Assembly (NCBI GenBank): GCA_964406895.1
Contig: CAYOTK010000002.1
Location: forward strand, 6,004-70,003
From: an uncultured Candidatus Saccharibacteria bacterium
GTDB lineage: Bacteria > Patescibacteriota > Minisyncoccia > Phycocordibacterales > PALSA-1337
DNA: 64,000 bases
Direction of reading: 5' to 3'
Shown here: one piece after another, positions 1-38,108 of the stretch
Position numbering within the stretch: the stretch's first letter is position 1
Layout: every line of letters begins with the position of its first letter
Position numbers and translations under genes: made by a program
Notes under the pieces: model-generated
Database searches by the model: none
Told to the model about the DNA's origin: nothing
What the model saw: only the letters and a program-made list of their open reading frames with translations

Positions 1-13
1 CTATGATTAAGTT

Positions 14-2317
14 ATGAATTTCGAACAAAGGGAAGAAAATAACCTTATGTTACCCACTGAAACCACCACTCAAAGACAGAAGGTTTTTATGATGGCCAGA
101 AAAGAAACCGGAGACCAAAAAATCCTAGAGCAATTTACACCCGAACAGCAAAGAGAAATAGAAAGTAAACAAAGAATTCTCTCATCCCTAGCTTATTTTA
201 TTGGTAAAGATTTTAGAATCCCGGTTGAGCTAAATGAACCTGGGCGGGGTTGGCACTGGGATTTTGAACATAATGTTATTCGGATTGATCCTAAAGATCT
301 TCTTGAAAAACCGATGGATTATCTTCGTTTCGTGATTGCCCATGAAGGTGGTCACCGGCGGATTTCTCGCACAGATTTTATCCCAGTCGAAGAGTGGGAG
401 CAACCGGGTTTTTCGGCTTTGATGAACGCGATTGAAGATCCCCGGGATAATAATTTTGTGGCGGAAAATTATCCAAGATTCAGAAAACAAATGGAATTCG
501 CCTATAATTTAGATGAAGAACTGGTAGCAAAAGCCAAAGCGGAAGCCAAAGGAAAGTTGGGTTATCAGCCTAGGTTTATGCAAGCGAGTTTTGAATATAT
601 AAAACAATGGTTTAACGAAAGACAGAATCGGGAAATGAAAATAAGTGAAGATTTGACCAAAGATGTTAAAGTGGTTTTGAGCAAAACTCTCAAAAGTGCG
701 CAAGACTCTTGGTGGCGATACCCAACTAAAAAAGAAGCAGATGAAAGTGAGAAGCTCATTGCCGATTACGCCAAAGTTTCCTACGAAATCAACCGTGATG
801 AAATTTGGCCGGAGTTTAAAAAGTTGGTTGCAATGGATATGCAGGATCAAAGAAGCCAGGAGTTTCTTAAAAATCAGCAAAAAGCTAGAGGTAAAGAAGG
901 TGGTTCGCCTGGTTTACCACAGGAGTTAAAAGAAAAATTGACTCTTGAAGAACAGAAGGCCTTGGAAGAGGCGCTTGATAAAGCCATTGAAGAAGCCAAA
1001 AAAAGACAGGAAGAAGAAAAGGCCAAAGCGGAAAAAACCAAAGAGGCAACGAGCGAAAAATCAGCTGATGGAGAAGAGGAAACACCCGGTTCATTCAGCG
1101 GAAAAAGTGATGATAAGGACGGAAAATCAGAATCAATGGAATCACAAGGGAAACCCGAAGAACAATCAGTCGATGGACAACCTGTTCCGATTAATCTGGA
1201 TTCATTATCCCCGGAGTTAAAAAATAAAATTAAGGAATATGTTGACTCCCTTCCAGAAGATAAGAAAAAAGAATTGACCGAAAAAGCCAAGAAAGCACTA
1301 AAAGAATTCGAGGACAAACTTAATGAAAAACTTCAAGGCAAGCTGATGGAAAATCCAGAAGAGAAAAAGACTGAAGATCAAAAAGCTCAAGAAACGACAA
1401 TCAGTGCTGGGGAGGCAGTGCGAACCGGCCCAAAAAGGGCGGGGGTTGTCGATATTGCCGGGCTAAAAACTTATAAAGAACGTCTTGAGAGAGAGATAAA
1501 TAAAGACGCCAATTTATATGAGGAAATGAGACGAGAGGTTCTGCTTTTGATTGATAAATTAGAGATGGAGTTGAGACAAATATTTGTTGCGCGCAAAACT
1601 CGGGCCTGGAAAACCGGTTTTGAAACAGGTAAAAGGATAGATATTAAGACCAGGATTCAAGAAAAAGCCCAATCTGTTCCTATAATGGAAAGCCGAGCCT
1701 GGCAGAAAAGAGAAGCGCCTCAAGAAAAAGATTACGCAATTTCTTTGCTGGTGGATTTATCCGGTTCCATGTGGCAAGATGATAAAATTAAGGAGACTTT
1801 TAAAGCGGTTGTTGTCCTTTGTGAAGTTTTGAATCGTCTATCTATTAATTTGGAGATTCTGGGTTTTAATGATCAAATGTACACTTATCAAGCCTTCGGT
1901 GAACAGATATCCAATAAAATCCGCGAATTGATGGGTGGTATGATTAAAGAAGTTGATGATAGTCGTTGCCATAGTTGCGGTAATGAACATAATGAAACTG
2001 ACTTGGGTTGGGCTACAGAAATGGCTTCAAAAAATCTGGCTAAACAAAAAGCCGATAACAAATTCCTTATCACCTTATCAGATGGAAAGCTGGAGGAATC
2101 CTCAAAACATCCTCGCGACAAATATAATTTAGAGGCAGTCATCAAAAAAACCGTTGAGGCTACGGATATAAATATTATCGGTTTGGGTGTTGGCCGGGGA
2201 ACTCAGGGAATGAGTGTCTACTATCCCAAAAGTATCGCCAATGTTCAGGTTTCTGAGATGGCCGAAAAACTTTCTGACCTTATCCGTGATGTAATTGCAG
2301 ATTATGATAAAATCTAA
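14..2317 (+). CDS. vWA-domain protein with N-terminal zincin-like HExxH (HEGGH) domain and K/E-rich coiled-coil linker; partner of downstream MoxR ATPase
   Basis: HEGGH motif (VIAHEGGHRR); long low-complexity K/E-rich segment; C-terminal vWA with intact MIDAS (LLVDLSGSMW ... ITLSDGK). Confidence 0.6.
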   Translation: MNFEQREENNLMLPTETTTQRQKVFMMARKETGDQKILEQFTPEQQREIESKQRILSSLAYFIGKDFRIPVELNEPGRGWHWDFEHNVIRIDPKDLLEKPMDYLRFVIAHEGGHRRISRTDFIPVEEWEQPGFSALMNAIEDPRDNNFVAENYPRFRKQMEFAYNLDEELVAKAKAEAKGKLGYQPRFMQASFEYIKQWFNERQNREMKISEDLTKDVKVVLSKTLKSAQDSWWRYPTKKEADESEKLIADYAKVSYEINRDEIWPEFKKLVAMDMQDQRSQEFLKNQQKARGKEGGSPGLPQELKEKLTLEEQKALEEALDKAIEEAKKRQEEEKAKAEKTKEATSEKSADGEEETPGSFSGKSDDKDGKSESMESQGKPEEQSVDGQPVPINLDSLSPELKNKIKEYVDSLPEDKKKELTEKAKKALKEFEDKLNEKLQGKLMENPEEKKTEDQKAQETTISAGEAVRTGPKRAGVVDIAGLKTYKERLEREINKDANLYEEMRREVLLLIDKLEMELRQIFVARKTRAWKTGFETGKRIDIKTRIQEKAQSVPIMESRAWQKREAPQEKDYAISLLVDLSGSMWQDDKIKETFKAVVVLCEVLNRLSINLEILGFNDQMYTYQAFGEQISNKIRELMGGMIKEVDDSRCHSCGNEHNETDLGWATEMASKNLAKQKADNKFLITLSDGKLEESSKHPRDKYNLEAVIKKTVEATDINIIGLGVGRGTQGMSVYYPKSIANVQVSEMAEKLSDLIRDVIADYDKI

Positions 2318-2329
2318 TATAATCAAAAC

Positions 2330-2758
2330 ATGACAAATGTCTCAAAAATGGCCTTATCGCAATTTTTAGCCAGAACCGAAGCCCAGAAGGATATTTCTTT
2401 AGTCATTGCTCAAGACCAAAAAGAACTCAATGAATTCAGTCTTTTTTTGAAAAATGAAGGATTTCAAGCGGCAGAAAATATTAGAACCCTTATCTCTTAT
2501 TTGAGCGACACTTCTAAGCCCGCCAGATTATATGTTTCGCCTAATAAAGATAACATCAAATCTTTCTATGATTTTCTAGTTCAATATCCAACCGGGCAAG
2601 TGGAGATTTTTGACAGTCAGGAAATGAAATCCAAGGTTTTTCAACCCGACTATAACAATTCTACAGTTGTGTTTCTTGTTTCCAAAAAAGACATCTCCGA
2701 ATTTCAGTCGAATAATTTTTCGCTTCTTCAATATGCCGGGATGACTTTTCAAAATTAA
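2330..2758 (+). CDS. hypothetical protein between vWA and MoxR genes
   Basis: 142-aa ORF tightly packed between two operon partners; no recognisable motif. Confidence 0.3.
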   Translation: MTNVSKMALSQFLARTEAQKDISLVIAQDQKELNEFSLFLKNEGFQAAENIRTLISYLSDTSKPARLYVSPNKDNIKSFYDFLVQYPTGQVEIFDSQEMKSKVFQPDYNNSTVVFLVSKKDISEFQSNNFSLLQYAGMTFQN

Positions 2759-2767
2759 TAAATTATT

Positions 2768-4849
2768 ATGAAAACCACAGAGCAACCCAATCCAGTTTTA
2801 TCAGAGGAAGCAATTGTTAAACCAGTTCAAGAGACCGAAACATCTGTCTCGTATTTAGGAGTGACTCTTGAGAAAGCAGAAAAAAAAGAAGGACGTTTTG
2901 TCCCTAAAAAAGAACAATATAAAGATTATATTAATGAAAAATTTTCTCTTGAGCTCCAGCAAAAGATAGCAATATCTTTTCTGGCCGGTGATCCAGTCCT
3001 GATTGAAGGGGGAACCAGTATTGGAAAGACCACGACAGTCAAAAAAATGTGCGCAGAACTTGGTTGGGAAGTCCATTATGCCAACCTTAACGGAGCGACC
3101 GATGTGCAAGATTTGATGGGTCGATATATTCCTAATCCGTTCAAGCTTGATCGGACGAAAATCTCCGATGAAAAATACGAAAAAATTATCAAAGAATGGA
3201 TAAATCACACCGCCGGAATGGATCCCTCCCTTTTGGAGGGTAAGGAATATATTTTTGCTGATGGAAAAGTGACCAGCGGCTTGCGTCAAGAAGAAGGAAA
3301 AGTAAAAGTAATTATTTTGGATGAGTTTAATGCTTCCGCTCCGAACATCCTTATTCGTTTGCACGAAGTGCTGGATGCCCTGGAACGCGGTGGCGATGTC
3401 ACTTTGTCCGAGGATGCCTCGGAAGTTGTTCCGGTCAGTAAAGGAAATACTAAAATAATTGCCTTAATGAACCCACCAGGCAAAGGCTATTTTGGCCGAG
3501 AACCACTGGATCCGGCCCAGCTTAGACGTTGGGTATATCAGAAAGAAGTGACTGAACTTCCTGGTGAGACTTTTTCATTCAGCACTAAAGCTCTTTTTGG
3601 CATACGGTCTGATATGCAAGAAATACCAGAGGATCTTTATCTTAAACCCCGTCAGTCAATCCTGCCGGCCGAACAACTTCAAGAAATCCCCGGCATTGAA
3701 GATATTTTAGCCAAATACGAAGAATTTCATAAAGCCGTTAAGGAATTGGTGGCCACACGAAAAATTGCCACCGATCAACCTCAGCCATTTACTTACGATG
3801 ATCGAGCGGAACCACGACGAGTTCGGGATTTTGTTTTGCGTTTTTATACGGGTGATCTGAATGAGACTTTCCAAGAGGCCCTGCGTTATTATTACCGGAA
3901 TAAGTTGGAAAGCGATGAGGATAAGAAAAAAATCGGTGAGCTTATTGACCATGTGATGCATGTTCCCAAAGAGGAGACAAAGAGAAAAGGGACGAAAAGA
4001 AAAAGCGATGAGAAAGCTAAAGAAGCTAAATCAGAAAATCCAGGCGAAGCCAAGGAAAAAATAGATGCGGAAGAATTGCTGGGTAAAACCGAAGAAGAAA
4101 TCAAAGTCATGAAAACAGCTTTGAGAAAAAAAAGAAAGGAAATTCTGGGTGAGTCTTCTGACTCCGTCATCTCCGTTGAATATAAAAGAAAGGACGAAAA
4201 AGGCGAAGTTGTCAATGAAATTATTAAAATTGATTTTCAAGAAAAACTAGATTCCGCGGTAGATTTTTACAAAAAGCACGATATAGAACTGCCAACAGAC
4301 TTTATTGAACAAATACAAGATATTTGGCAGAGAAATGTTGATAGTATGAAAGAAGCGATAGAAAAACAGGGTTTTGATGAGATATTGTTTATCCCCAGTG
4401 GCTTGGCCGTGCCGGACTTACATACAAAAATGTCGGCTGGATATGTTGGAACCTACCAGGGCGATTATTTTGAAGCGAACGGTTCCTTTTCTGGCGTTAA
4501 AGAAAAGACAAACGATTCAAGAATTATCTTGATTCACAAGAATAACGCTCAAAATTTAGCCGATCGACCAGAATTAAAAGAAACCCTGGGAAAAACCGCT
4601 GAATCTCTCATCAAGTCCGGAGAAACTCTTACTTTAACTGATTATCTCATCTATCAAAAGAAATATTTTGAAGAAACTGGCAAGCATTTAGATGCGAATG
4701 GTTGGACCTGTCTCCCTGGTTCTAGGTCTGGCTCCTTTGTTGTCTACGCCTACTGGGTCCCGGGTAATGGTCGGCTCGTTGTGAGCGCCTTTGCTTCGGA
4801 CGACTCGACTCCGTGGGTCGGTTGCCGCCCCTCCCGCTGTTTCCAATAA
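2768..4849 (+). CDS. MoxR-like AAA+ ATPase (AAA_5) fused to a ~230-aa C-terminal ligand-binding-like domain whose last ~40 aa form DGR variable repeat VR1
   Basis: Walker A GGTSIGKTTT, Walker B IILDEF, MoxR signature ALMNPPGKGYFGREPLDPAQLRRW; C-terminal half paralogous to CDS 5690..6718; ends ...GCRPSRCFQ. Confidence 0.7.
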   Translation: MKTTEQPNPVLSEEAIVKPVQETETSVSYLGVTLEKAEKKEGRFVPKKEQYKDYINEKFSLELQQKIAISFLAGDPVLIEGGTSIGKTTTVKKMCAELGWEVHYANLNGATDVQDLMGRYIPNPFKLDRTKISDEKYEKIIKEWINHTAGMDPSLLEGKEYIFADGKVTSGLRQEEGKVKVIILDEFNASAPNILIRLHEVLDALERGGDVTLSEDASEVVPVSKGNTKIIALMNPPGKGYFGREPLDPAQLRRWVYQKEVTELPGETFSFSTKALFGIRSDMQEIPEDLYLKPRQSILPAEQLQEIPGIEDILAKYEEFHKAVKELVATRKIATDQPQPFTYDDRAEPRRVRDFVLRFYTGDLNETFQEALRYYYRNKLESDEDKKKIGELIDHVMHVPKEETKRKGTKRKSDEKAKEAKSENPGEAKEKIDAEELLGKTEEEIKVMKTALRKKRKEILGESSDSVISVEYKRKDEKGEVVNEIIKIDFQEKLDSAVDFYKKHDIELPTDFIEQIQDIWQRNVDSMKEAIEKQGFDEILFIPSGLAVPDLHTKMSAGYVGTYQGDYFEANGSFSGVKEKTNDSRIILIHKNNAQNLADRPELKETLGKTAESLIKSGETLTLTDYLIYQKKYFEETGKHLDANGWTCLPGSRSGSFVVYAYWVPGNGRLVVSAFASDDSTPWVGCRPSRCFQ
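4730..4843 (+). repeat. DGR variable repeat VR1 (3' end of MoxR gene)
   Basis: ~115-nt match to the TR at 5118..5235; most mismatches fall on TR adenines; GC-rich 3' segment gccgcccctcccgc shared with TR (IMH-like). Confidence 0.7.
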
Positions 4850-5117
4850 TTAGGTAACTTGTAGCTTGGATTTTTGTATTTATTTTTTCTTTTTATTTTT
4901 AACTTCGGCGAGTATGGTTTGCGAGTTGGGAAGCAGACCTGCCGAAGCGCTCAAAAAAACTGAAGACAACCGCGGTAAGGTAATACCTTGCCATATTGTA
5001 AGGTTTTAAGTCGTGAGAGTGATAAGTTAAGGAAACAGCGGTTTTGGGTTGGGAAAGTTGTCCTAATAAATAGAGTCTGGTTTCCATGGATGTAAGGATA
5101 GCCTCAAGCTAAAAGAG

Positions 5118-5235
5118 GGTCGGCTCCAATGTTGTCTACGCCAACTGGAACCCGAGTGATGGTCAGCTCAATGTGAACGCCAATGCTCCGGACAACTCAA
5201 ATCCGAATATCGGTTGCCGCCCCTCCCGCCGTTTC
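5118..5235 (+). repeat. DGR template repeat (TR), rich in AAC/AAT codons
   Basis: Encodes N V V Y A N W N P S D G Q L N V N A N A P D N S N P N I; aligned VR1 and VR2 positions differ almost only where the TR has A. Confidence 0.7.
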
Positions 5236-5664
5236 TGTTTTAGTAATAGACTGTCCTATTTAAATGGCTTGGATGAATTTGTGAAAGAAGAATTAGGATC
5301 TAGGTTCTATATTCAATACAATGATGATTTTGTGATTTCGGATAATTCTAAATTGCGTTTAAAAAAATATTTGCCACGGATAAGAAAACTCTTGGAAGAA
5401 AAATTAGAACTGAAAATTCCGGCAGAAAAAACGTCTATAAGAAAATTGGAGTGGGAAGTGGATTTTCTAGGTTACATTATTTTGAAAGACGCTGTTTTGC
5501 TCAGAAATAAGACTAAAGGCAAAATTTTTGAGAGGTTGAATGAGAAAAATATCAGTTCTTATTTAGGCTTGTTAAAACATTGCAATTCTTATACTTTAAA
5601 ACAGAAGATCATTTCAAATTATAATAGTCAAATAAAGTCTTATGACTTTGAAGGTGATTTTTAA
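5173..5664 (+). CDS. reverse transcriptase, DGR-type, N-terminally truncated (end of motif 4 through motif 7 and thumb only); GTG start lies inside the TR
   Basis: FSNRLSYLNGLDEFVK (motif 4 tail), RFYIQYNDDFVI (motif 5 YxDD), LELKIPAEKTSIRK (motif 6), VDFLGYII (motif 7); a TAA stop lies in-frame just upstream of the TR, so no motifs 1-3. Confidence 0.6.
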   Translation: MNANAPDNSNPNIGCRPSRRFCFSNRLSYLNGLDEFVKEELGSRFYIQYNDDFVISDNSKLRLKKYLPRIRKLLEEKLELKIPAEKTSIRKLEWEVDFLGYIILKDAVLLRNKTKGKIFERLNEKNISSYLGLLKHCNSYTLKQKIISNYNSQIKSYDFEGDF

Positions 5665-5689
5665 TTTACAGTATGCTAGTATTTACGGT

Positions 5690-6718
5690 ATGAAATTTGA
5701 AGCCTTAAAGCCCAAAGGTGTTACGGAAGAACCTGAAGTTTCAGGACTCGAAGCTTTGTCGGAAGAGGAAAAACAAGAAAAAGTCGCTTTAATGAAAGAA
5801 CTTGAGAATCGTATTAAAGCTGTAGAAGCCGGTCTGGCAGACTTGCAAGATGCTGTTACTGAAGCAGAAAAAAGCAATGATTGGTCAAAGGTTTCGTCAC
5901 TAAAAAATATTTTGAAAAGTAAACTGGCGCTCGCCAAAACCGCTCAAAGAAAATTAGAAGGTCGAGAGGAAGAACTTACTATTTCTGCCGAATATAAGTA
6001 TAAAGATGAGAAAGGGAAGGAAATCGCGGAGACGATAGAATTGGATTTCGAAACAGAAATTTCCTCTCTGATTGATTTATACAAGAGGAATGGCATTGAA
6101 GTCCCCGTTGACTTTAAGGAACAAATGCAAAGTCTTTGGGAGAAAAATGCCGATGCTATGACGGAAGCCGTTGCCGAGAAAGGATTTGATCAGGTTTTGT
6201 TTATTCCGGAAAATCTGCCCAAACTCAAAGAGTTAGAGGTTAAAATGACCGCGGGTTATGAAAAAGAAAAAGGCAATAAGACTTATTGGTATATAAGTGC
6301 TGATGATATAAAAGAAACAGCGACAAGGGGAGCCAGAATCATTTTGGTTCACAAGGCTCCGGATTTGACCGCTCACCCAGAACTAAAGAAAACACTGAGC
6401 AAGGAATTCGGTGGAGAAAAAGAAAATGGGAAAGATAATAAAGCGGAGGATTTTATAAAAGACGGCGAATCTTTGACTTTGTCTGAATATTTGATTTTAC
6501 AGAGAGATGTTTTTGAGAAAACTGGTGTTCATCTGGATAGCAAACTAACACCTGATGGCGATTATATTTTCTGGACATGGCTTCCCGGTTCTCAAGTCGG
6601 CTCCTATGTTATCGACGCCGGCTGGAGCCCGGGTGGTGGTCGGCTCGGTGTGAGTGCCCGTGCTCCGGACTACTCGCAGCCGGCTATCGGTCGCCGCCCC
6701 TCCCGCTGTTTCCAATAA
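5690..6718 (+). CDS. stand-alone paralog of the MoxR C-terminal domain carrying DGR variable repeat VR2 (ORF track start 5642; a later Met nearer 5690 is more likely)
   Basis: Aligns over ~230 aa with the C-terminal half of CDS 2768..4849 (YKRKDEKGE.../YKYKDEKGKE..., LTLTDYLI/LTLSEYLI); ends ...GRRPSRCFQ. Confidence 0.6.
   Translation: MKFEALKPKGVTEEPEVSGLEALSEEEKQEKVALMKELENRIKAVEAGLADLQDAVTEAEKSNDWSKVSSLKNILKSKLALAKTAQRKLEGREEELTISAEYKYKDEKGKEIAETIELDFETEISSLIDLYKRNGIEVPVDFKEQMQSLWEKNADAMTEAVAEKGFDQVLFIPENLPKLKELEVKMTAGYEKEKGNKTYWYISADDIKETATRGARIILVHKAPDLTAHPELKKTLSKEFGGEKENGKDNKAEDFIKDGESLTLSEYLILQRDVFEKTGVHLDSKLTPDGDYIFWTWLPGSQVGSYVIDAGWSPGGGRLGVSARAPDYSQPAIGRRPSRCFQ
6595..6712 (+). repeat. 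DGR variable repeat VR2
   Basis: ~115-nt match to the TR with differences concentrated at TR adenines; the same ~50-nt 3' flank (ccaataattagRtaacttgtag..ttggatttt.gtatttatttt) follows both VR1 and VR2. Confidence 0.65.
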
Positions 6719-6940
6719 TTAGATAACTTGTAGTTTGGATTTTGTATTTATTTTCCTTTTTTTATCTTCGATTTTTTTAAAATACATCAGATGTGGTGGT
6801 TGCAAAACTCACAAGTGAATAAAAAGTCACCATATGTTTTATTTTAGAAAAGAATATAATATTTGCGTAAAGTTAAATAATAAAAAATGAAATATTTTGT
6901 TGGATATCTAGCGTCTGAAAAATTATGATAGTATTAATTC

Positions 6941-7438
6941 ATGCAAATCAAATCAACTCTCACCAATCGTTCAGGTCAAGTTTTGGATGTTACATACAAT
7001 GATATAAACGACGAATCAGAACTTGGAAATAGAAAGATAAATGGTGTTCACGCATATTGCTTCTGTGATGGCAAACTCGTTCTTGTTTACGCAGAGGAAA
7101 AGAAATATTGGTCTCCACCGGGAGGAGCCGTAGAAATCGGAGAAAGTATTCGCGAAGCAGTCACAAGAGAAGTCAAAGAAGAAACAAATATGCGCGTTAT
7201 TTCTCAAAAAATCATTGGATATCAAGAAGTCATCGAGCCAAAAGGTATTTCTGTTCAGACACGCTCCGTTTGTATTGTTGAGCCCTACGGACCTTTTGTT
7301 TCTGATTCTGATGGTGATATAACGAAGATTATGTTAATAGTTCCAAGTGATTATAAGAAATATTTTGATTGGGGAGAGATTGGGGATCACATTTTTAATA
7401 GGGCGATGGAAATTGTAAAAAACTATGAACATCTTTGA
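6941..7438 (+). CDS. Nudix hydrolase
   Basis: Nudix box GGAVEIGESIREAVTREVKEETN. Confidence 0.7.
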   Translation: MQIKSTLTNRSGQVLDVTYNDINDESELGNRKINGVHAYCFCDGKLVLVYAEEKKYWSPPGGAVEIGESIREAVTREVKEETNMRVISQKIIGYQEVIEPKGISVQTRSVCIVEPYGPFVSDSDGDITKIMLIVPSDYKKYFDWGEIGDHIFNRAMEIVKNYEHL

Positions 7439-7829
7439 TCAAGTAAAATCATTAAATCTACCACTAGGCCAATATGCAGTCGTTGGTGGTGGTGTTCTGG
7501 CCACTCACGGTATTCGAGATTTCAAAGATATTGATATCCTGATTACTAGAGAGTTGTTTGATGAATTGAAAAAGATAGGTTGGACAATAAAAGTGACGTC
7601 TGGGGGTTCAACTAATGTGGTAAATGGTATAGTAGAAGCCGGTCCAGATATTATTTATTGCAAGAATTATGAACCAGATATTGCGAAAGTTATAAAAGAA
7701 GCTGACATCATTAATGGTATTCCTTTTATGAATTTGCATGAACTGGTGAAATTCAAGAAGGCCTTAGGCAGAGAAAAGGATTTGGTTGATGTAGGGTTGG
7801 TGGAGGAGTATTGGGAGAAATTTTATTAA
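7425..7829 (+). CDS. minimal nucleotidyltransferase-fold protein
   Basis: VVGGGVLATHGIRDFKDIDIL fits the G[GS]...DxD NTase signature. Confidence 0.4.
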   Translation: MNIFDQVKSLNLPLGQYAVVGGGVLATHGIRDFKDIDILITRELFDELKKIGWTIKVTSGGSTNVVNGIVEAGPDIIYCKNYEPDIAKVIKEADIINGIPFMNLHELVKFKKALGREKDLVDVGLVEEYWEKFY

Positions 7830-7859
7830 TTTGAAAGATTAGTGTAATATAATTGTATT

Positions 7860-8297
7860 ATGGATTGTGCATTTTGCTCAAATAAAGAAGTTAAGGAACG
7901 TATAATTATTGAGAATGATTTTGCCTTTGCGTTTCCAACCAATACTCCGATTGTTCAGGGTCATATTTTAATTTGTCCTAAAAGACACATACAATACTAT
8001 GAAGATGCAACCGAGGAAGAGAAAAATTCTATTGAAGAACTAAGAATAAAAATACGAAGAGCTTTGATTAAAACTCTAAGTGCTCAAGGTTTTAATTGGG
8101 CTTGGAATGAGGAGAAAATCAGGGGTCATTCTGTTCCACACTTTCATCTTCATGTGGTACCAAGAAAAGAAGGCGATCAGGGTGTCTATCAATATGAACC
8201 AAGAGAATTTTTGTATCGCCCTTCACCTAGAACTTTAATAACACCAAATGATGAATTGATGAAGATTGTTCGGGTGATACAAGAGGCTATAAAATAG
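7860..8297 (+). CDS. HIT family hydrolase
   Basis: Histidine triad HFHLHVVPR. Confidence 0.75.
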   Translation: MDCAFCSNKEVKERIIIENDFAFAFPTNTPIVQGHILICPKRHIQYYEDATEEEKNSIEELRIKIRRALIKTLSAQGFNWAWNEEKIRGHSVPHFHLHVVPRKEGDQGVYQYEPREFLYRPSPRTLITPNDELMKIVRVIQEAIK

Positions 8298-8356
8298 TAA
8301 ATAAAGATTTCAAGGTGAAATAATAAATGATAACTTGTTATCCACACCCATAAATT

Positions 8357-8420
8357 GACTAATTCACTGAATTCGGTATAATTTGGTGATTCAATTCACT
8401 GAATTAGTCATAAAATGGTG
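8357..8420 (+). promoter_or_regulatory. sigma70-like promoter (TTGACT-16 bp-TATAAT) overlapped by two copies of an AATTCACTGAATT operator-like repeat
   Basis: ttgactaattcactgaattcggtataat followed by ...caattcactgaattagtca, directly upstream of CDS 8437. Confidence 0.5.
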
Positions 8421-8436
8421 AATTGATATAATATAT

Positions 8437-9570
8437 ATGACAATATATAGATATTTGCAGGACAAAATAAAGTCAAACATAGGAAAAAGAAAGATACAGA
8501 TAATCTATGGCCCAAGACAAGTGGGCAAGACGACGCTTGTAAAAGAGTTTCTATCTCTACCAAATAGTGTTTATTACAACTGCGATCAAGATGAAACGCG
8601 CCTACTTTTTGAAGAAGCAAATCTAGAAAAACTTGCTACTTTAGTTAAAAAATACGATACAGTTGTAATAGACGAAGCTCAAAAAGTTAATAACATAGGA
8701 TTATCATTAAAAATTATTTTCGATAATTATCCAGATAAAAATTACATTGTCACAGGATCTTCGTCATTCGATTTGGCAAAATCAGTGAGTGAACCTCTTA
8801 CAGGTCGATTTTTTTCTTATACCATGTTTCCAATAGCTGAGATAGAACTTGCAAAAAGTAAGAATCCGATCGAGCTTCGCGAATCACTTGAGAATCGTCT
8901 TATTTACGGTTCTTATCCAGAAGTTATTACCGCAATTGATCTTGAGACAAAAAAAGAAATAATAAAAAACATCACTGACAATTATTTGTTCAAAGACATT
9001 TTATCGCAGGGTGTAATAAGAAATCCTGATGATTTACGAAGATTACTGCAAGCCATAGCTTTGCAAAGCGGCAATGAAGTATCGCTTTCGGAACTAGCTA
9101 AAACTCTTGATCTTGACAAGAATACGGTAAAAAAATATTTAGAGATTTGTGAAAAGCTTTATATTCTTTTCTCATTATCGCCATATGTATCAAATAAGCG
9201 TAAATCAATATCAATGTTAAAGAAATACTTTTTTTATGACCTGGGAATAAGAAATTCTCTGATAAATAATTTTAATCCGATTGTAACGAGGAATGATGTT
9301 GGGTCGCTCTGGGAGAATTATATGATCTTAGAAAGATTAAAATACAATTCTGCAAGAAATTTTGACCCTATGTATTATTTCTTTCGCTCATATGAGATGC
9401 AAGAAATTGATTTGTTTGAGGATGAGGGTGGGGTACTTAATGGATATGAGTTTAAATTTTCAAAAGATGGAATAAATAAAGCGACTAAAGAATTATTTGA
9501 GAATGATATCAAAGGTAAGGAACTAAAGATCGTCAATAGGGATAATTATTCAGAATTTATTGGAACTTGA
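8437..9570 (+). CDS. AAA-family ATPase (DUF4143-type)
   Basis: Walker A GPRQVGKTTL, Walker B VVIDEAQ; length and layout typical of this family. Confidence 0.55.
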   Translation: MTIYRYLQDKIKSNIGKRKIQIIYGPRQVGKTTLVKEFLSLPNSVYYNCDQDETRLLFEEANLEKLATLVKKYDTVVIDEAQKVNNIGLSLKIIFDNYPDKNYIVTGSSSFDLAKSVSEPLTGRFFSYTMFPIAEIELAKSKNPIELRESLENRLIYGSYPEVITAIDLETKKEIIKNITDNYLFKDILSQGVIRNPDDLRRLLQAIALQSGNEVSLSELAKTLDLDKNTVKKYLEICEKLYILFSLSPYVSNKRKSISMLKKYFFYDLGIRNSLINNFNPIVTRNDVGSLWENYMILERLKYNSARNFDPMYYFFRSYEMQEIDLFEDEGGVLNGYEFKFSKDGINKATKELFENDIKGKELKIVNRDNYSEFIGT

Positions 9571-9776
9571 GAATAAGATGAAATAATAACCATGCGAATC
9601 GAGTCATACCTAGACATAACTCCGGAAGAAATTACGAGTAAGGCCCACAACATATGGTTAGGAATAAGTCTTGGAAATAAATATTTTACAAAAGAAAATA
9701 TTGAAAAATATTTGATGATGCAAAGGAAAAAATAATATGCGGAAAGATGTGTTATAATCCAAAATATTTATAAAAT

Positions 9777-10745
9777 ATGAATATCAAAGATTTGTTCAAA
9801 ATATTACATAGTTGGGAGTTCCCTTTACTATTGAAAAAATTGATTGAGATAAGTTTTTTCGATACTCTTCAAGAAGAACTTTCTCTGAATAAATTAAAAG
9901 ATATTTATCATTTTAAAGAAGACAAGATGCGGGTCTTATTAGATGTCCTCGAAAGTCATGGACTTATTAGTATTGAGAATGACAAAATCTCTCTTTCTGA
10001 ATTCTCGAAGAAATATCTCTTAAAAGATTCGAAATTTTACATTGGTTCATATATTGTGTGGAGAATTGAAGATTTGAAACACTGGGAAGTTAATATGTCT
10101 TCTGTTCTAAAAGGTAAAATGAAGACAGTTCATGGAGACTATCAGTATTTGGAATATACAGACAAGCACAAAGAAGCATTGGAGGGAATCGTGGTCGCTT
10201 GTTCCAAGGTTTATCCAGCTGAAGATTTTGCTCGCAAAATAAAAGATAATATTGTTATCAATGGGTCTCTGCTCGATTTGGGTTGTGGTACAGGATTTTG
10301 GGGATTGGCATTACAAAAAGAATTTCCAGACCTGAATTTAACCCTGTTTGATAGAGAAACTGATTTTATAAATATAAAAGAATCAGAATCAAATTTTAAA
10401 GAGAAGATATCAATAGTAAAAGGAGATATGTTTGAATCAGGTTCTCTTCCAAAGGCCAATAATGTTTTGGTTGCAAACGTCTTTATGGATTGGAGTGATG
10501 AGGTATTGATAAAAATGTTACAAAAGATAGTTAAAGAATGTAATCCTAATGTCTTATTGATTCATGAATTTGTCCTCGAGAAAGACATACCGTTTCTTAA
10601 TGAATATAATTTCTTTGCTCAGATGGAGACTCTGGGGAAGATTCGCAGTAAAGATTGGTGGTTTACTCAACTGAAGGTTTATTTCAAAAATATTGATTTT
10701 GTGCCATTAGAGTTTGGTTCGATGGCGATTATTTGTAGACAGTAA
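9777..10745 (+). CDS. class I SAM-dependent methyltransferase, O-methyltransferase-like, with N-terminal dimerisation/winged-helix region
   Basis: SAM motif I LLDLGCGTGFWG; preceded by an extended -10 tgttataat. Confidence 0.55.
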   Translation: MNIKDLFKILHSWEFPLLLKKLIEISFFDTLQEELSLNKLKDIYHFKEDKMRVLLDVLESHGLISIENDKISLSEFSKKYLLKDSKFYIGSYIVWRIEDLKHWEVNMSSVLKGKMKTVHGDYQYLEYTDKHKEALEGIVVACSKVYPAEDFARKIKDNIVINGSLLDLGCGTGFWGLALQKEFPDLNLTLFDRETDFINIKESESNFKEKISIVKGDMFESGSLPKANNVLVANVFMDWSDEVLIKMLQKIVKECNPNVLLIHEFVLEKDIPFLNEYNFFAQMETLGKIRSKDWWFTQLKVYFKNIDFVPLEFGSMAIICRQ

Positions 10746-10882
10746 GATTGGTGTGCAATAAAACCATAAGAGGTTGAATGTGCCTTTTTGTATGTTGACA
10801 TATACACATTACGCATGTTACAACAGATTTGGTTTAGTGAAGTGGTAACAGTAGACAATCACGCAAAAACGAAAGGTAACAC

Positions 10883-11335
10883 TTGAAATACATTATAACG
10901 CACGGTGACAAGGAAAAGGGGCCGGATCCCGAACTGCACATTTTAGGAATCGCTCAGGTCGCCGGCTTGACCGTCCCTGAAGACGTCACGAACGTGATCG
11001 TCGGTACCGGACGTCGTTTCATTCAGACATGGGATACCGTCAAAAAATCCAAGACTCTGAACGTTGCGGTGAGGTACTCTCCGCTCTGCGGCTCCGCCGA
11101 CAGTGGCGAGAAGAGCGAGACCAGTTTCATGGTCACTCTCGCTGATGGAACCAGCGTGGGGATTGGTGACTACGTCGGTCTCATCGGTACTCCCGGGGTC
11201 GACCTCAAGTCTTGGTTGGACTCCTTGCCGGAGGGCACCCTCCTCATCGCCGGCCGAGAATTTCTCGGTGCCATCGGATACACTGAGGGAAAGACCGGCA
11301 CCCTCTACAAGTACAGTGAGGGCCGGATTGTGTGA
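10883..11335 (+). CDS. hypothetical protein in a GC-rich island (weak SixA / histidine-phosphatase-like N-terminus with THG in place of RHG)
   Basis: MKYIITHGDK... resembles the start of SixA-type phosphatases; local GC is far above the flanks. Confidence 0.3.
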   Translation: MKYIITHGDKEKGPDPELHILGIAQVAGLTVPEDVTNVIVGTGRRFIQTWDTVKKSKTLNVAVRYSPLCGSADSGEKSETSFMVTLADGTSVGIGDYVGLIGTPGVDLKSWLDSLPEGTLLIAGREFLGAIGYTEGKTGTLYKYSEGRIV

Positions 11336-11473
11336 GAACACGGGGCTGCGCTCGCCGAATACCGGCGGGTCGCGGCCCTTTTTGATTTTACTGACACTTC
11401 CAAAGATTATTCTGAACTAGTTTGAAAAATTAAAACTGTACTACTTTTCCCAAAAATATGTTAAATTTTATAT

Positions 11474-13894
11474 ATGAAATACACCAAATTATTTCGTGAA
11501 TTAAACAGGAATGATGCGTCAATAGCAGGAGGAAAGGGCGCGTCTTTGGGAGAAATGTTAAATGCGGGCATACCTGTTCCTGATGGTTATGTGGTACTTT
11601 CCACCACCTTTGATAAATTCATTGAAGATACTGATTTGGTTCAAGAAATAGACGCAATTTTAGACAGTGTGGATCACAAAGAAATTCATACTGTAGAGGG
11701 TGCATCCGAGAAAATAAAAGGTCTCATTTTGTCGCGTGAAATGCCTCACGATATAGCGGAAGAAATAAAAACAAATTTCAAAAGTTTGGATACGAAGTTT
11801 GTTGCCGTTCGTTCCTCAGCTACAGCAGAAGATGGTGCTGAACACGCTTGGGCAGGACAGCTCGAATCATATTTGAATACGACCGATAAGGATTTGTTAG
11901 ATAAAGTCAAACATTGCTGGGCTTCACTTTTTACACCTCGCGCTATATTTTATCGTTTCGAGAAAGGCCTACACTCAACCAGGATATCCGTAGCAGTTGT
12001 GGTACAAAAGATGGTCGAATCAGAAGTTTCCGGCATTGCATTCTCGGTACATCCTGTGACTGAAGATCGCAATCAGTTGATCATTGAAGCGGGCTTCGGG
12101 CTGGGTGAAGCAATCGTCTCTGGTTCTGTAACGCCTGATAGTTATGTGGTCGAGAAAACTCCAAGAAGAGTGATCGACAAAAATATAAGCACACAAGAAA
12201 GAGGTTTATTTAGAGTTGAGACGGGTGGTAATGAATGGAGAACAATCAATGAACCGATGGCCTCGTCACAAGTTTTGGATGAGAAACAAATTTTTGATCT
12301 TTCAGAAATTATAGTTGGTATTGAGAATCACTATGGTTTTCCTTGTGATATAGAATGGGCATACGAAAAAGGTAAGTTTTATATTGTGCAAAGTAGGCCA
12401 ATTACGACGTTGAGTGCAATTGTAGAAAAAAAAGATTTGGCAGACGAATATCTTGAACGCATTGGAAATCGGAAATTGTATCCTCCATTGAACGGTTATT
12501 CTGCATTTTTGCAGGGATCAGAATATAATATCGAAAAGTATTTTGGCAAATGGTATGAAAATAAAGTAAGATATGATTTTTTTCTCCACATGAAAGACGG
12601 GTATTCGCAAGTTTGGTTACCAGAAGACGATATTCGAGGTGCTTCTGACTTTGGGCTACGAGAATACCTGAATAAATCAAAGTCATTTGATCGTAGAATT
12701 GATTTTATGGATGAAAGCATAAAATATATTGATAAGATATATACACAATATACTTACGAAAAGATTGATGGAACAAAGTTGGACAAACTATTCTTATTGG
12801 TAAATGAAGTTAGAGACATTATTTGGGATGTAAACGCCGCTGTATCATTTTCTATCTTTTTTGATAAGAAAATGTGTGAAAATATTCTTATTGATGAAAA
12901 GTACCCGATCACCTCAAATGAAATTGATATTTTGTGGGATAAGGCTGTGACGCCAGCATTTGAATCGTTCGACAAGGTTCAACTCTGTCATTTGTTGACC
13001 TTGATGAGTAAGCCTAGTAAATGGGAATCAGTTTTAGAGGAATGCCAGTATTTTTTGACAGATTATCATTCAGCCAAGACTTTATCAGAAATTGAAAAAG
13101 CATTGAAAGAAAGATATAAGAAATATATTGATGAACCAGGAAGCGTGAAAGAGACTCTCAAAACTGAGACTGAAGAAGTGGCCAGAATGATTTCTGAACA
13201 TAAAAAATGGCTATATACATTGCCGGAAAATGAAAAGAAAATTGCAAATTATCTTCAAACTGTGATGAAGGTCAGGGATAGAAGAAAGAACTTCTTTGCT
13301 AAAGGTATGACAATAATGTACAGAGTGGCAGAAAAAGTTTTCAGAGAAGCTGGTGTAGATCGAAATCTTATTCCTTATTATACAATCCGTGAACTTCTTA
13401 ATGGTGTCGATTATTTGAAATCTTCTGTTGATGATTTGAAAGATAGAAAAAACGGTTTCCAATGGCTCGTGCCGTATTCTGATCAACCAAAAAAGCAAAA
13501 TATAAATATTGATAGTGGAATACAAAAAATCAATAATTATTTCAAGGAGTGTCATTTAAGTGACAATAATTCCAGTGAAATTCAAGGTCAATGTGCTTAT
13601 AAAGGTGTTATTAAAGGTCGTGTTCGAATAGTATTGAATGTAAATTCGAATCATGGTTTTTCTGATGGTGAAGTGCTTGTTGCGGGAATGACTCGACCGG
13701 AGTATGTTCCGTTGATGAAAAAAGCTGCGGCAATCATTACAGACGAAGGTGGAATTACATGTCACGCTGCAATCGTTTCCCGCGAACTCAAGAAACCCTG
13801 CATTATCGGCACAAAGATCGCCACCAAAGTCCTGAAAGACGGCGATATGGTAGAGGTGGATGCGGATAAGGGGGTGGTAGTTATTCTTAAATAA
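11474..13894 (+). CDS. PEP-utilizing enzyme, PEP synthase / rifampicin phosphotransferase-like (ATP-grasp PPDK_N domain + central domain + C-terminal phosphohistidine swivel domain)
   Basis: N-terminus IAGGKGASLGEMLNAGIPVPDGYVV (PPDK N-terminal domain); C-terminus GGITCHAAIVSRELKKPCIIGT (PEP-utilizers mobile-domain His motif). Confidence 0.75.
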   Translation: MKYTKLFRELNRNDASIAGGKGASLGEMLNAGIPVPDGYVVLSTTFDKFIEDTDLVQEIDAILDSVDHKEIHTVEGASEKIKGLILSREMPHDIAEEIKTNFKSLDTKFVAVRSSATAEDGAEHAWAGQLESYLNTTDKDLLDKVKHCWASLFTPRAIFYRFEKGLHSTRISVAVVVQKMVESEVSGIAFSVHPVTEDRNQLIIEAGFGLGEAIVSGSVTPDSYVVEKTPRRVIDKNISTQERGLFRVETGGNEWRTINEPMASSQVLDEKQIFDLSEIIVGIENHYGFPCDIEWAYEKGKFYIVQSRPITTLSAIVEKKDLADEYLERIGNRKLYPPLNGYSAFLQGSEYNIEKYFGKWYENKVRYDFFLHMKDGYSQVWLPEDDIRGASDFGLREYLNKSKSFDRRIDFMDESIKYIDKIYTQYTYEKIDGTKLDKLFLLVNEVRDIIWDVNAAVSFSIFFDKKMCENILIDEKYPITSNEIDILWDKAVTPAFESFDKVQLCHLLTLMSKPSKWESVLEECQYFLTDYHSAKTLSEIEKALKERYKKYIDEPGSVKETLKTETEEVARMISEHKKWLYTLPENEKKIANYLQTVMKVRDRRKNFFAKGMTIMYRVAEKVFREAGVDRNLIPYYTIRELLNGVDYLKSSVDDLKDRKNGFQWLVPYSDQPKKQNINIDSGIQKINNYFKECHLSDNNSSEIQGQCAYKGVIKGRVRIVLNVNSNHGFSDGEVLVAGMTRPEYVPLMKKAAAIITDEGGITCHAAIVSRELKKPCIIGTKIATKVLKDGDMVEVDADKGVVVILK

Positions 13895-13895
13895 A

Positions 13896-14981: not shown

Positions 14982-15347
14982 ATGTTATTAGATTCATTGG
15001 ATATTCACTTGAAAGTTGATGATAATATAAGAGAGATCAAGGGTCAGGTTGCTTTTAAAGGAAAAGTGATTGGCAAAGTCAGGATTTTGAAGACATCACA
15101 CGTTGATGATTTTGAAGAGGGAGATATTATAGTAACAGGCATGACAACACCAGATTTTGCACCGCTCATGAAAAAGGCTTCCGCGATTGTGACAAATGAG
15201 GGCGGTATCACATGTCATGCGGCTATAGTTTCTAGAGAATTGAAAATACCCTGTGTAATCGGCACAAAAATTGCTACTCAAGTTTTCAAAGACGGCGATA
15301 TGGTAGAGGTGGACGCGGATAAGGGGGTGGTGAAAATAATAAAATAA
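14982..15347 (+). CDS. stand-alone PEP-utilizing phosphohistidine swivel domain (121 aa)
   Basis: GMTTPDFAPLMKKASAIVTNEGGITCHAAIVSRELKIPCVIGTKIATQVFKDGDMVEVDADKGVVKIIK. Confidence 0.6.
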   Translation: MLLDSLDIHLKVDDNIREIKGQVAFKGKVIGKVRILKTSHVDDFEEGDIIVTGMTTPDFAPLMKKASAIVTNEGGITCHAAIVSRELKIPCVIGTKIATQVFKDGDMVEVDADKGVVKIIK

Positions 15348-15375
15348 TATGAATTTAAAATATTAATCTACTAAC

Positions 15376-16701: not shown

Positions 16702-16702
16702 T

Positions 16703-18205: not shown

Positions 18206-18207
18206 AC

Positions 18208-20492: not shown

Positions 20493-20500
20493 TTTATTTT

Positions 20501-21532: not shown

Positions 21533-21547
21533 TATAGTTTAATTATT

Positions 21548-33006: not shown

Positions 33007-33084
33007 AATCTCCCCGCGAGGAGAGATAGGATTCGTAAGATAAATCCATTCTCTCAAATACCTCTCGGGAAGTCAATAACCAAA

Positions 33085-38092: not shown

Positions 38093-38108
38093 ATACGAAT
38101 AGATACGA

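What the first reader, a model, noticed from the sequence alone, without database searches (positions are those of the whole stretch)
14..6718. The DGR targets sit on a vWA-HExxH / MoxR AAA+ pair, a candidate NTPase system with a hypervariable sensor
VR1 is the C-terminal ~40 aa of a MoxR-type ATPase that carries an extra ~230-aa domain. The MoxR call rests on Walker A/B motifs and ALMNPP...LDPAQLRRW. The partner gene 14-2317 encodes a vWA domain with intact MIDAS plus an N-terminal HEGGH zincin-like module and a K/E-rich coiled-coil. A second gene (5690-6718) encodes a free-standing paralog of the MoxR C-terminal domain and carries VR2. vWA-MoxR modules have been proposed as NTP-dependent conflict/signalling systems. 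DGR targets fused to NTPases or peptidases have been noted in other lineages, but I do not recognise a DGR-diversified MoxR with a metallopeptidase-vWA partner as described. Inference: the variable CLec-like C-terminus is a ligand/invader-recognition surface gating a protease-coupled ATPase.
Basis: partly seen in the sequence, partly recalled or inferred. Interest (0 to 1): 0.8.

Follow-up and report, generated by a model that had tools for sequence, protein, structure and literature searches.

The report
Common CPR ATPase DGR cassette, disabled
This is one copy of a gene cassette common in Patescibacteria (CPR) bacteria, in which a retroelement rewrites the binding tip of a motor ATPase that pairs with a protease-like partner; in this genome a deletion has broken the rewriting machinery.

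Summary
- Gene 14-2317 encodes a zincin-like HExxH module, a K/E-rich linker and a MIDAS vWA domain of the CobT/Midasin/NorD type.
- Gene 2768-4849 is a motif-intact AAA_5 ATPase, closer to Midasin/CobS than to MoxR proper. It ends in an FGE/C-type-lectin-fold domain carrying VR1.
- Gene 5690-6718 is a free paralog of that domain carrying VR2.
- TR (5119-5235) differs from both VRs almost only at adenines.

- The DGR is dead here. A 976-bp microhomology deletion removed avd and about 208 RT codons, and the VRs have begun to drift.
- A conserved 142-aa gene (2330-2758) is a third component.
- The architecture is not rare. In 73 species-level genomes, mostly labelled Patescibacteria, the vWA gene preceded the ATPase in 59/59 loci and the small gene in 58/59. 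Wherever a DGR was detected, a VR lay in or just after the ATPase gene.

Published work already calls CLec-AAA-ATPase fusions the commonest CPR DGR target and describes DGR-linked MoxR-vWA conflict systems. I found no description of the zincin-vWA and 142-aa partners.

All proteins look cytosolic. The sensor-gated protease mechanism is plausible but untested. Verdict: a new member of a known kind, of moderate interest.

The parts
14..2317 (+). ORF1, 767 aa: zincin-like module, K/E-rich linker and MIDAS vWA domain. Predicted cytosolic.
   Evidence: Pfam CobT_C 29.7 bits against cut-off 21. The PDB profile search hits CobT, the Midasin MIDAS domain and NorD. 579 homologues at 54-95% identity, named Patescibacteria where a source names them. 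No TM helix or signal peptide.
131..883 (+). Zincin-like N-terminal domain (aa ~40-290). HEGGH is at nt 341-355; the candidate third ligand E141 (motif NAIEDPRDNNF) is at nt 434-436.
884..1513 (+). K/E-rich, length-variable linker (aa ~291-500).
   Evidence: 18% K and 18% E. Mostly gapped or variable in the family alignment. Aligns with the acidic linker that precedes the Midasin MIDAS domain.
1691..2314 (+). vWA domain with a MIDAS motif. DLSGS is at nt 1754-1768; D663 and D690 are also invariant.
2330..2758 (+). ORF2, 142 aa: conserved third component of unknown fold (motif YDFxVQYPTGQVEIFD).
   Evidence: Present between the vWA and ATPase genes in 58 of 59 surveyed loci. Alignment. No hit in Pfam, NCBIfam, PADLOC, PHROGs or PDB.
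2768..4849 (+). ORF3, 693 aa: AAA_5 ATPase, K/E linker and CLec-fold domain ending in VR1.
2945..3967 (+). AAA+ core and lid (aa ~60-400). Walker A is at nt 3011-3034 and Walker B at nt 3308-3325.
   Evidence: Pfam AAA_5, E = 2.6e-10. Catalytic motifs are invariant. Best PDB matches are Midasin AAA modules and CobS. About 65% identity across CPR homologues.
4130..4846 (+). C-terminal alpha/beta plus FGE/C-type-lectin-fold domain (aa 455-693).
4727..4843 (+). VR1 (ORF3 aa 654-692), with a GC-rich IMH-like 3' end.
5119..5235 (+). Template repeat (TR). Adenines lie mostly in AAY codons.
5257..5263 (.). Junction of the 976-bp deletion. It lies between two TATTTAA microhomologies and removed avd and RT codons 1 to ~208.
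   Evidence: The window aligns to relative L002 as 2-5263 to 7235-12496, then 5257-6881 to 13473-15101. In L002 the missing stretch holds bAvd (123 aa, minus strand) and the 5' part of a 343-aa RT.
5264..5664 (+). Reverse-transcriptase remnant: the YxDD motif and thumb only.
   Evidence: RVT_1 profile positions 134-205 of 205, 29.7 bits. Matches the C-terminal parts of group II and DRT RT models. No other RT-like ORF in the 64 kb.
5690..6718 (+). ORF5, 342 aa (358 aa from the ATG at 5642): coiled-coil N-terminus plus a free-standing paralog of the ORF3 C-terminal domain.
   Evidence: 46% identity, E = 2e-67. 29 homologues, all ~300-360 aa. A free second target is seen in many related loci.
6596..6712 (+). 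VR2 (ORF5 aa 303-341).

Best explanation
The region is one copy of the commonest DGR cassette of Patescibacteria (CPR).

Shown
- It is an operon of three predicted cytosolic proteins:
  1. a zincin-like HExxH module joined by a K/E-rich linker to a MIDAS vWA domain of the CobT/Midasin/NorD type;
  2. a conserved 142-aa protein;
  3. a catalytically intact AAA_5 ATPase (Midasin/CobS-like, 'MoxR-like' in the broad sense) whose C-terminal FGE/C-type-lectin-fold domain ends in the DGR variable region.
- These are followed by TR, avd, RT and a free-standing second CLec target.
- In a sister strain this DGR is active. ATPase variants are identical over 653 aa and differ at up to 13 of the last 40 residues.
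- In this window a 976-bp microhomology deletion removed avd and the RT N-terminus. Both VRs are therefore fixed and have started to accumulate non-adenine substitutions.

Inferred
- The ATPase ring displays CLec binding sites whose specificity was written by mutagenic retrohoming (about 10^14 possible variants).
- Binding of a cytosolic ligand, most plausibly a phage or other invader protein, is coupled through the usual AAA_5-MIDAS partnership to the zincin module of the vWA protein. That module then cleaves the bound ligand or an effector.
- The free CLec paralog would widen or modulate recognition.
- I put about 0.35 on this sensor-protease step and about 0.9 on the anatomy.
For: - A-specific TR/VR mismatches.
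- Domain calls.
- Invariant catalytic, MIDAS and HExxH residues.
- CLec fold and zincin-like fold.
- The intact cassette in relative L002 and the exact deletion.
- Non-A mismatches are 0/84 and 1/84 in the intact relative against 3/83 and 5/83 here (p = 0.02).
- Sister-strain variants show 0 differences outside the VR and 1-13 inside it.
- Survey of 73 species genomes: vWA upstream in 59/59, small gene in 58/59, RT in 34/48. A TR>VR pair was called at the end of the ATPase ORF in 26/48, and every other detected pair had a VR in the same region.
- No TM helix or signal peptide.
- Literature: a CLec-AAA-ATPase fusion is the commonest CPR DGR target, and DGR-linked MoxR-vWA-peptidase conflict systems exist.
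Against: - No experiment or tool result shows ligand binding, proteolysis or any coupling between the proteins.
- There is no PADLOC defence-system hit apart from a weak ATPase match.
- The trio is unusually conserved for a conflict system, at 55-70% identity across CPR lineages.
- About 30% of surveyed loci have no DGR nearby, so the module also works, or persists, without diversification.
Confidence: 0.6

Rival explanations
1. The trio is a housekeeping remodelling or assembly chaperone, not an immune sensor. It would work like CobS-CobT, NorQ-NorD, CbbQ-CbbO or Midasin. The CLec domain would be a substrate adaptor, and the DGR would tune it to changing host or self proteins. The zincin module would process the client.
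For: - The closest solved relatives are CobS/CobT, NorD and Midasin, and the PHROG hits are phage CobS/CobT families.
- Sequence conservation across CPR lineages is very high.
- 14 of 48 loci have no RT or TR yet keep intact genes.
- Some family members carry non-CLec C-termini such as repeat domains.
- There are no defence-library hits.
Against: - Within-strain hypervariation is confined to the 40-aa VR, which fits a fast-changing ligand better than a fixed client.
- No CobN, NorB or Rubisco-type client gene was seen next to the trio in the gene tables of the six related loci examined.
- The CobS equivalog model scores 16.5 bits against a cut-off of 558.
Confidence: 0.25
2. The variable proteins mediate cell-surface attachment of the episymbiont to its host or to particles. 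This is the general role often proposed for cellular DGR targets.
For: CPR bacteria are largely episymbionts. Roux et al. discuss attachment roles for cellular DGR targets.
Against: - ORF1, ORF2, ORF3 and ORF5 have no signal peptide or TM helix; the maximum Kyte-Doolittle 19-residue mean is <= 1.57.
- An AAA+ ATPase fusion needs cytosolic ATP.
- Roux et al. note that CPR clade-2 targets typically lack TM domains.
Confidence: 0.05
3. The cassette is a phage or mobile-element module: a CobS/CobT-like auxiliary gene pair with a phage DGR. It would serve the element rather than the cell.
For: - PHROG matches to phage CobS/CobT-like families.
- Integrase, recombinase, transposase or phage genes lie near several related loci.
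- In this strain the cassette is flanked by direct copies of a 134-aa gene.
- There is a prophage-like block elsewhere in the window.
Against: - Only 3 loci were found in 2.9 million viral contigs, against 73 in species-level cellular genomes.
- The immediate neighbours in the window are ordinary cellular genes: NUDIX, HIT, a methyltransferase and a PPDK-like gene.
- The prophage-like block starts about 26 kb away.
Confidence: 0.1

Closest known systems
[quoted passage not shown] 2017 Nat Microbiol, as summarised in Dore et al. 2024, PMC10907252; Wu et al. 2018, PMC5758913, report 'Midasin'-type AAA in CPR UVR4 targets)
   Same: Same lineage and same architecture: an AAA_5 ATPase with a C-terminal VR, and a DGR with avd on the opposite strand. 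Homologues number in the hundreds. The window's gene is a member of this class.
   Different: In this copy avd and the RT N-terminus are deleted. I found no description of the strictly conserved upstream zincin-vWA gene and 142-aa gene in the papers I could read. Paul et al. 2017 itself is not held, so I could not check it.
VMAP and iSTAND MoxR-vWA ternary conflict systems with DGR-diversified FGS/CLec domains (Kaur et al. 2020, PMC7159879; Dore et al. 2024)
   Same: A MoxR-clade AAA+ plus a vWA partner, a peptidase and a DGR-diversified CLec domain. The components are predicted to be largely cytosolic. A sensor-transducer-effector logic has been proposed.
   Different: - There the CLec is fused to the vWA protein; here it is on the ATPase.
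- There the peptidase (trypsin or caspase type) usually sits on a separate VMAP protein; here a zincin is fused to the vWA N-terminus.
- No VMAP or iSTAND protein is recognisable, and the third gene is an unrelated 142-aa protein.
- Those systems occur in multicellular bacteria (DGR clade 5); this one is in CPR (clade 2 per Roux et al. 2021).
AAA_5-MIDAS remodelling pairs: CobS-CobT, NorQ-NorD, CbbQ-CbbO, and Midasin/Rea1
   Same: These are the best sequence relatives of both the ATPase and the vWA domain, including the charged linker before the MIDAS domain.
   Different: There is no CobN, NorB or Rubisco client gene. The curated CobS model is far below its threshold. The zincin module and the DGR-diversified CLec domain are extra.
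CLec-fold DGR variable proteins Mtd (BPP-1), TvpA (Treponema denticola) and TaqVP
   Different: Mtd is a phage tail-fibre tip and TvpA a surface lipoprotein. Here the domain is cytosolic and fused to a motor ATPase. It also has an extra N-terminal alpha/beta subdomain.
Minigluzincins (selecase, jannalysin, abylysin) and M48/M56 zincins (Ste24, BepA, BlaR1)
   Same: A three-stranded sheet, an HExxH helix and a following helix carrying a conserved Glu. These are the top structural matches.
   Different: The scores are weak and there is no sequence-family membership. The domain is about 250 aa with additional helices. Activity is unknown.

Membership tests
Diversity-generating retroelement (DGR) | A TR/VR pair whose mismatches fall at TR adenines | tested here: met
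   VR1: 18/25 A against 3/83 non-A. VR2: 17/25 A against 5/83 non-A. p ~1e-10 to 1e-12.
Diversity-generating retroelement (DGR) | A complete DGR-type reverse transcriptase encoded near the TR | tested here: not met
   Only RVT_1 profile positions 134-205 of 205 remain. There is no other RT in the 64 kb. The relative L002 has the full 343-aa RT. The element here is a decayed DGR.
Diversity-generating retroelement (DGR) | The accessory variability determinant (Avd) | tested here: not met
   The bAvd gene present in L002 and in most related loci lies wholly inside the 976 bp deleted here.
Diversity-generating retroelement (DGR) | A conserved GC-rich IMH at the 3' end of the VR, with a variant copy at the TR | tested here: met
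   GCCGCCCCTCCCGC occurs exactly three times in the window, at the 3' ends of VR1, TR and VR2. Just downstream, both VRs share a C>T difference from the TR. No stable downstream hairpin was found.
Diversity-generating retroelement (DGR) | The VR lies in a C-type-lectin/FGE-fold (or Ig-like) ligand-binding domain | tested here: met
MoxR-clade (helix-2-insert) AAA+ ATPase, AAA_5 type | An AAA_5 domain above Pfam threshold with intact Walker A, Walker B, sensor and Arg motifs | tested here: met
   40.9 bits against cut-off 22. Invariant G82-T89, D185, E186, N235 and R253-R254.
MoxR-clade (helix-2-insert) AAA+ ATPase, AAA_5 type | A genomically coupled vWA/MIDAS partner | tested here: met
   The vWA gene lies upstream in 59 of 59 loci with enough sequence.
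MoxR proper (MRP subfamily, Pfam AAA_3) | A match to the AAA_3/MoxR model | tested here: not met
   Only AAA_5 was reported at E <= 0.01. The best solved relatives are Midasin and CobS.
Aerobic cobaltochelatase CobS-CobT | Equivalog-level match to CobS | tested here: not met
   TIGR01650 scores 16.5 bits against a cut-off of 558.55.
Aerobic cobaltochelatase CobS-CobT | A CobN partner gene nearby | not tested
   No explicit CobN search was run. None of the ten ORFs scanned in window 1-10.7 kb and no gene in the tables of six related loci carries a CobN-type annotation.
vWA domain with MIDAS | DxSxS plus downstream acidic or Thr ligands; a Pfam vWA-family match | tested here: met
   D581, S583, S585, D663 and D690 are invariant. 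CobT_C is above threshold. The profile hits CobT, Midasin and NorD.
Zincin (gluzincin-like) metallopeptidase | HExxH plus a third zinc ligand on the next helix | tested here: met
   H110, E111, H114 and E141 are invariant. The motif HEGxH...[IL]E[DE]xxxN persists at ~30% identity. The helices are placed as in zincins.
Zincin (gluzincin-like) metallopeptidase | A significant fold or profile match to a peptidase family | tested here: inconclusive
Zincin (gluzincin-like) metallopeptidase | Peptidase activity | not testable with these tools
   Needs biochemistry.
VMAP ternary conflict system (Kaur et al. 2020) | A VMAP protein with an N-terminal peptidase, cyclase or EAD domain as the third component | not tested
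   The third gene is a 142-aa protein with no match in Pfam, NCBIfam, PADLOC, PHROGs or PDB. None of these libraries was checked to contain a VMAP profile, so this was not tested directly. At 142 aa it is unlikely to combine an N-terminal effector domain with a VMAP domain (my inference).
VMAP ternary conflict system (Kaur et al. 2020) | The effector/FGS (CLec) domain fused to the vWA component | tested here: not met
   The CLec domain is fused to the ATPase. The vWA protein carries a zincin-like module instead.

The most novel reading that the evidence does not exclude
The strictly conserved trio (zincin-vWA, 142-aa protein, AAA_5-CLec ATPase) is a CPR-wide cytosolic surveillance machine with reprogrammable specificity. 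The DGR writes the recognition site directly onto the motor ATPase. Ligand capture then drives MIDAS-mediated hand-over to a built-in metalloprotease. That would make it an antibody-like, ATP-driven targeted-proteolysis system in bacteria that largely lack other defences. It would also explain what the most abundant class of CPR DGRs is for. The operon-level partnership (zincin on the vWA protein, plus the 142-aa third component) was not described in any paper I could search.
Probability: 0.2. Interest if true: 0.8.

Novelty: new member of a known kind. Interest (0 to 1): 0.4.

Why it matters
CPR/Patescibacteria carry a large share of cellular DGRs, and what their targets do is still open. Roux et al. 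note that CPR targets typically have no recognisable domain.

This work shows that the ATPase-CLec target nearly always sits in one fixed three-gene module, with a MIDAS-vWA protein bearing an invariant HExxH site and a 142-aa partner. All of these proteins look cytosolic. That turns the question into concrete experiments: complex formation, ATPase-coupled proteolysis, and ligand capture by VR variants.

The window also gives a natural 'off' allele. A clean deletion of avd and the RT N-terminus sits beside a sister strain with a visibly active DGR. Comparing the two would show what happens to a target once diversification stops.

For the scan itself, the finding is real, but it is a member of an already reported class, not a new kind of system.

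Tried and rejected
- Second RT or TR in the window: I looked for YxDD motifs in six frames, the IMH sequence, and blastn matches to the TR. None was found.
- Family for the HExxH domain: there was no hit in NCBIfam or PADLOC. The PHROG matches cover only residues 286-752, the linker and vWA part. Relaxed Pfam over 38 members also gave nothing for the N-terminal domain.
- The AlphaFold-database Foldseek library was unavailable.
- ORF2: no hit in any library or in the PDB.
- Cruciform or hairpin downstream of VR1, VR2 and TR: the folds were no better than shuffled sequence, z 0.1-0.5.
- Paul et al. 2017 could not be read by DOI or PMC id. Its content is cited only through Dore et al. 2024.
- The source NCBI contig (107,679 bp) could not be retrieved.
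- Phage origin: rejected as the main explanation. Only 3 viral contigs carry the ATPase.
- Assembly artefact for the deletion: considered unlikely. The same junction is in the Logan contig, and it lies between 7-bp microhomologies. The two assemblies may, however, share reads.
- tRNA and Rfam scans of the window were empty.

Full report
OBSERVATION

The ORF map shows four co-directional genes: 14-2317 (767 aa), 2330-2758 (142 aa), 2768-4849 (693 aa) and 5642/5690-6718 (358/342 aa). Between the last two lies a 163-aa ORF, 5173-5664.

Repeat finding and alignment give a three-member family: 4727-4843 (VR1), 5119-5235 (TR) and 6596-6712 (VR2).
- In the 108-nt core, 18 of 25 TR adenines are changed in VR1 against 3 of 83 other bases.
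- For VR2 the figures are 17 of 25 against 5 of 83. Fisher p values are 4e-12 and 7e-10.
- Nine of the adenine-bearing TR codons are AAY. The 16 adenine-containing codons (one of them silent) allow about 10^14 protein variants.
- The GC-rich 14-mer GCCGCCCCTCCCGC occurs only at the 3' ends of the three repeats.

The DGR signature is therefore real and far beyond chance.

THE PROTEINS

ORF3
- It has a Pfam AAA_5 domain (40.9 bits, cut-off 22).
- Walker A, Walker B, sensor-1, the Arg residues and sensor-2 are invariant in the family.
- Its best solved relatives are the AAA modules of Midasin, and CobS. No AAA_3 (MoxR proper) match was reported. 'MoxR-type' is right only in the broad helix-2-insert-clade sense.

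The ORF3 C-terminal domain
- Residues 455-693 were modelled with 36 homologues at pLDDT 89 and pTM 0.88.
- VR1 covers model residues 200-238, the last strands.
- Variable codons alternate with invariant W, P, G, L, V and A. This is the pattern expected for one exposed face. I could not compute accessibility because the coordinates are not exposed.

ORF5
- It is 46% identical to ORF3 residues 445-693 (E = 2e-67).

ORF1
- It has a CobT_C-type vWA domain. Its profile hits CobT, the Midasin MIDAS domain with its charged linker, and NorD.
- D581-x-S583-x-S585, D663 and D690 are invariant.
- The N-terminal ~250 residues have no Pfam model, even at relaxed thresholds in 38 members.
- H110, E111, H114 and E141 are invariant. 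The motif HEGxH...[IL]E[DE]xxxN persists in relatives down to ~30% identity; 94 of 101 full-length proteins keep it.
- The AF2 model (pLDDT 81) has a small sheet, an HExxH helix and a following Glu-bearing helix.
- I accept 'zincin-like' at moderate confidence. Activity is untested.

Localisation
- None of the four proteins has a signal peptide or TM helix.

- The ORF after the TR matches only RVT_1 profile positions 134-205 of 205 and the C-terminal parts of other RT models. There is no other RT in the window.
- A 94%-identical relative from a JGI metagenome (L002) has the full cassette: vWA, 142 aa, ATPase, TR, bAvd (minus strand), a 343-aa RT, then target 2.
- Alignment shows the window lacks L002 positions 12497-13472 (976 bp). 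The junction lies between two TATTTAA microhomologies. The deletion removes all of avd and RT codons 1 to ~208.
- An identical junction is present in a Logan assembly.
- Non-adenine TR/VR mismatches are 0/84 and 1/84 in the intact relative, but 3/83 and 5/83 in the window (p = 0.02). This fits decay after inactivation.
- Each strain's VRs follow its own TR at strain-specific non-A sites, so homing continued after the strains split.
- The intact DGR is active. Seven ATPase sequences from different metagenome contigs are identical over residues 1-653 and differ at 1-13 of the last 40 residues. The free target shows the same pattern.

HOW COMMON IS THE ARCHITECTURE?

- The ATPase has more than 400 database homologues of about 640-790 aa, roughly 65% identical in the first 400 residues. 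Nearly all end in VR-like sequence of five or more distinct classes.
- ORF1 has 579 homologues at 54-95% identity.
- Gene tables for six related loci, covering all five VR classes, show the same order: vWA, ~135 aa, ATPase, then (where the contig continues) avd on the minus strand, RT and a second target.
- A scan of one genome per species returned 73 loci. Their record titles name many CPR lineages, plus some non-CPR or unclassified labels on metagenome bins.
  - The vWA gene is upstream in 59 of 59 loci with 4 kb or more of upstream sequence, and the small gene in 58 of 59.
  - Of 48 loci with a complete ATPase ORF and at least 3.5 kb downstream, 34 have an RT.
  - In 26 of those 48 my script called an adenine-biased TR>VR pair at the end of the ATPase ORF. 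The few further pairs it found have a VR in the same region, in loci where the ATPase frame appears interrupted.
  - Fourteen of the 48 loci have no RT within about 7 kb, and 13 of these have no TR/VR pair either, yet most keep full-length ATPase ORFs. Loss of diversification, as in this window, is therefore recurrent.
- Only 3 loci were found in 2.9 million viral contigs.

LITERATURE

- Dore et al. 2024 (PMC10907252) state, citing Paul et al. [quoted passage not shown] They suggest the ATPase transduces signals detected by the C-terminal region.
- The same paper and Kaur et al. 2020 (PMC7159879) describe DGR-linked MoxR-vWA-VMAP 'ternary conflict systems'. In those, the CLec/FGS domain sits on the vWA protein and the peptidases are mostly trypsin- or caspase-like. 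Kaur et al. left CPR organisms out of their multicellularity assessment because no information exists for them.
- Wu et al. 2018 noted a 'Midasin' AAA motif in one class of CPR targets.
- The preprint version of Roux et al. 2021 says CPR clade-2 targets typically lack TM or recognisable domains.
- I found no paper describing the zincin-vWA or 142-aa partners in CPR. Paul et al. 2017 is not held.

MECHANISM

Shown:
- the parts, their conservation and their order;
- the fold of the variable domain;
- DGR activity in the sister strain and its loss here;
- predicted cytosolic location.

Inferred from the established behaviour of AAA_5-MIDAS pairs (CobST, NorQD, CbbQO, Midasin) and of CLec-fold variable proteins (Mtd, TvpA):
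- the ATPase oligomer displays DGR-written binding sites;
- a bound cytosolic ligand is handed, through ATP-driven interaction with the MIDAS partner, to the zincin module for cleavage, or else triggers cleavage of an effector;
- ORF2 is an obligatory adaptor or regulator;
- the free CLec paralog broadens or competes for recognition.

A conflict or anti-invader role is my preferred reading (about 0.35 for the specific sensor-protease step). The reason is that variation is confined to the binding site within a single strain.

The main rival is a chaperone or assembly role with a tunable adaptor (0.25). It is favoured by the high conservation, the CobS/CobT/NorD kinship and the many DGR-less loci. 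Surface adhesion is disfavoured by the lack of export signals. A phage-borne module is disfavoured by the viral-contig scan.

VERDICT

The particular copy has a dead DGR.

The locus is a new member of a known kind. The residual novelty is the conserved zincin-vWA/142-aa partnership. It deserves a targeted follow-up because it offers a concrete handle on the function of the commonest CPR DGR targets. Interest 0.4.

Noticed in passing
window 11474-23831: A PPDK_N + PEP-utilizers gene (806 aa) is followed by at least six consecutive same-strand genes. Each of these ends in a PEP-utilizers 'swivel' domain (PF00391, E 1e-23 to 1e-27), and their N-terminal parts have no Pfam match. This is a tandem array of swivel-domain paralogs of unknown role.
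   Followed up: no
window ~33000-46000, with further phage-sized ORFs to ~60000: A prophage-like block with higher GC (0.43-0.50 against 0.33-0.40). It holds an AAA_24 ATPase, N6/N4 and C5 DNA methylases, a portal + Mu-F fusion (41104-43299) and an HK97-type capsid (44420-45619). A ResIII helicase lies at 60767-63112.
   Followed up: partly
window 6941-7829; L001 3-146; L002 6315-7162 and 15226-15727: The DGR cassette is bracketed by direct copies of a 134-aa gene (PHROG 12854-like, no Pfam hit). The adjacent NUDIX gene is downstream of the cassette in the window but upstream of it in the sister strain. This suggests recombination between the flanking repeats, or insertion of the cassette into this locus.
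   Followed up: partly
window 2768-4849, aa ~126-147: This ATPase and its close relatives carry a ~22-residue insertion (LDRTKISDEKYEKIIKEWINHT) within the AAA+ core that most family members lack.
   Followed up: no
related proteins P0010, P0081, P0117; loci L041, L042, L065, L079: Some members of the same ATPase family have non-CLec C-termini. Examples are repeats of the type 'LAGLDSDRAW.REKLL' and a 1131-aa form. The C-terminal module of this ATPase has therefore been swapped during evolution.
   Followed up: no
L061, L074, L077, L080 (VR at ~6290-6470) and L031 (VR at 5252-5367): In several genomes an extra VR-bearing target gene sits between the vWA gene and the small gene, upstream of the ATPase. 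One TR then serves two or three targets.
   Followed up: no
L007 14691-15860; L008 15918-18370; L005 1163-2119: Some related cassettes lie next to phage or mobile-element genes: an SU10-type major capsid protein, Phage_rep_O plus a serine recombinase, and an rve integrase.
   Followed up: partly
window 8437-9570: An AAA_14 + DUF4143 ATPase gene is conserved downstream of the cassette in both strains. It lies next to a HIT-family gene (7860-8297) and an O-methyltransferase (9777-10745).
   Followed up: no
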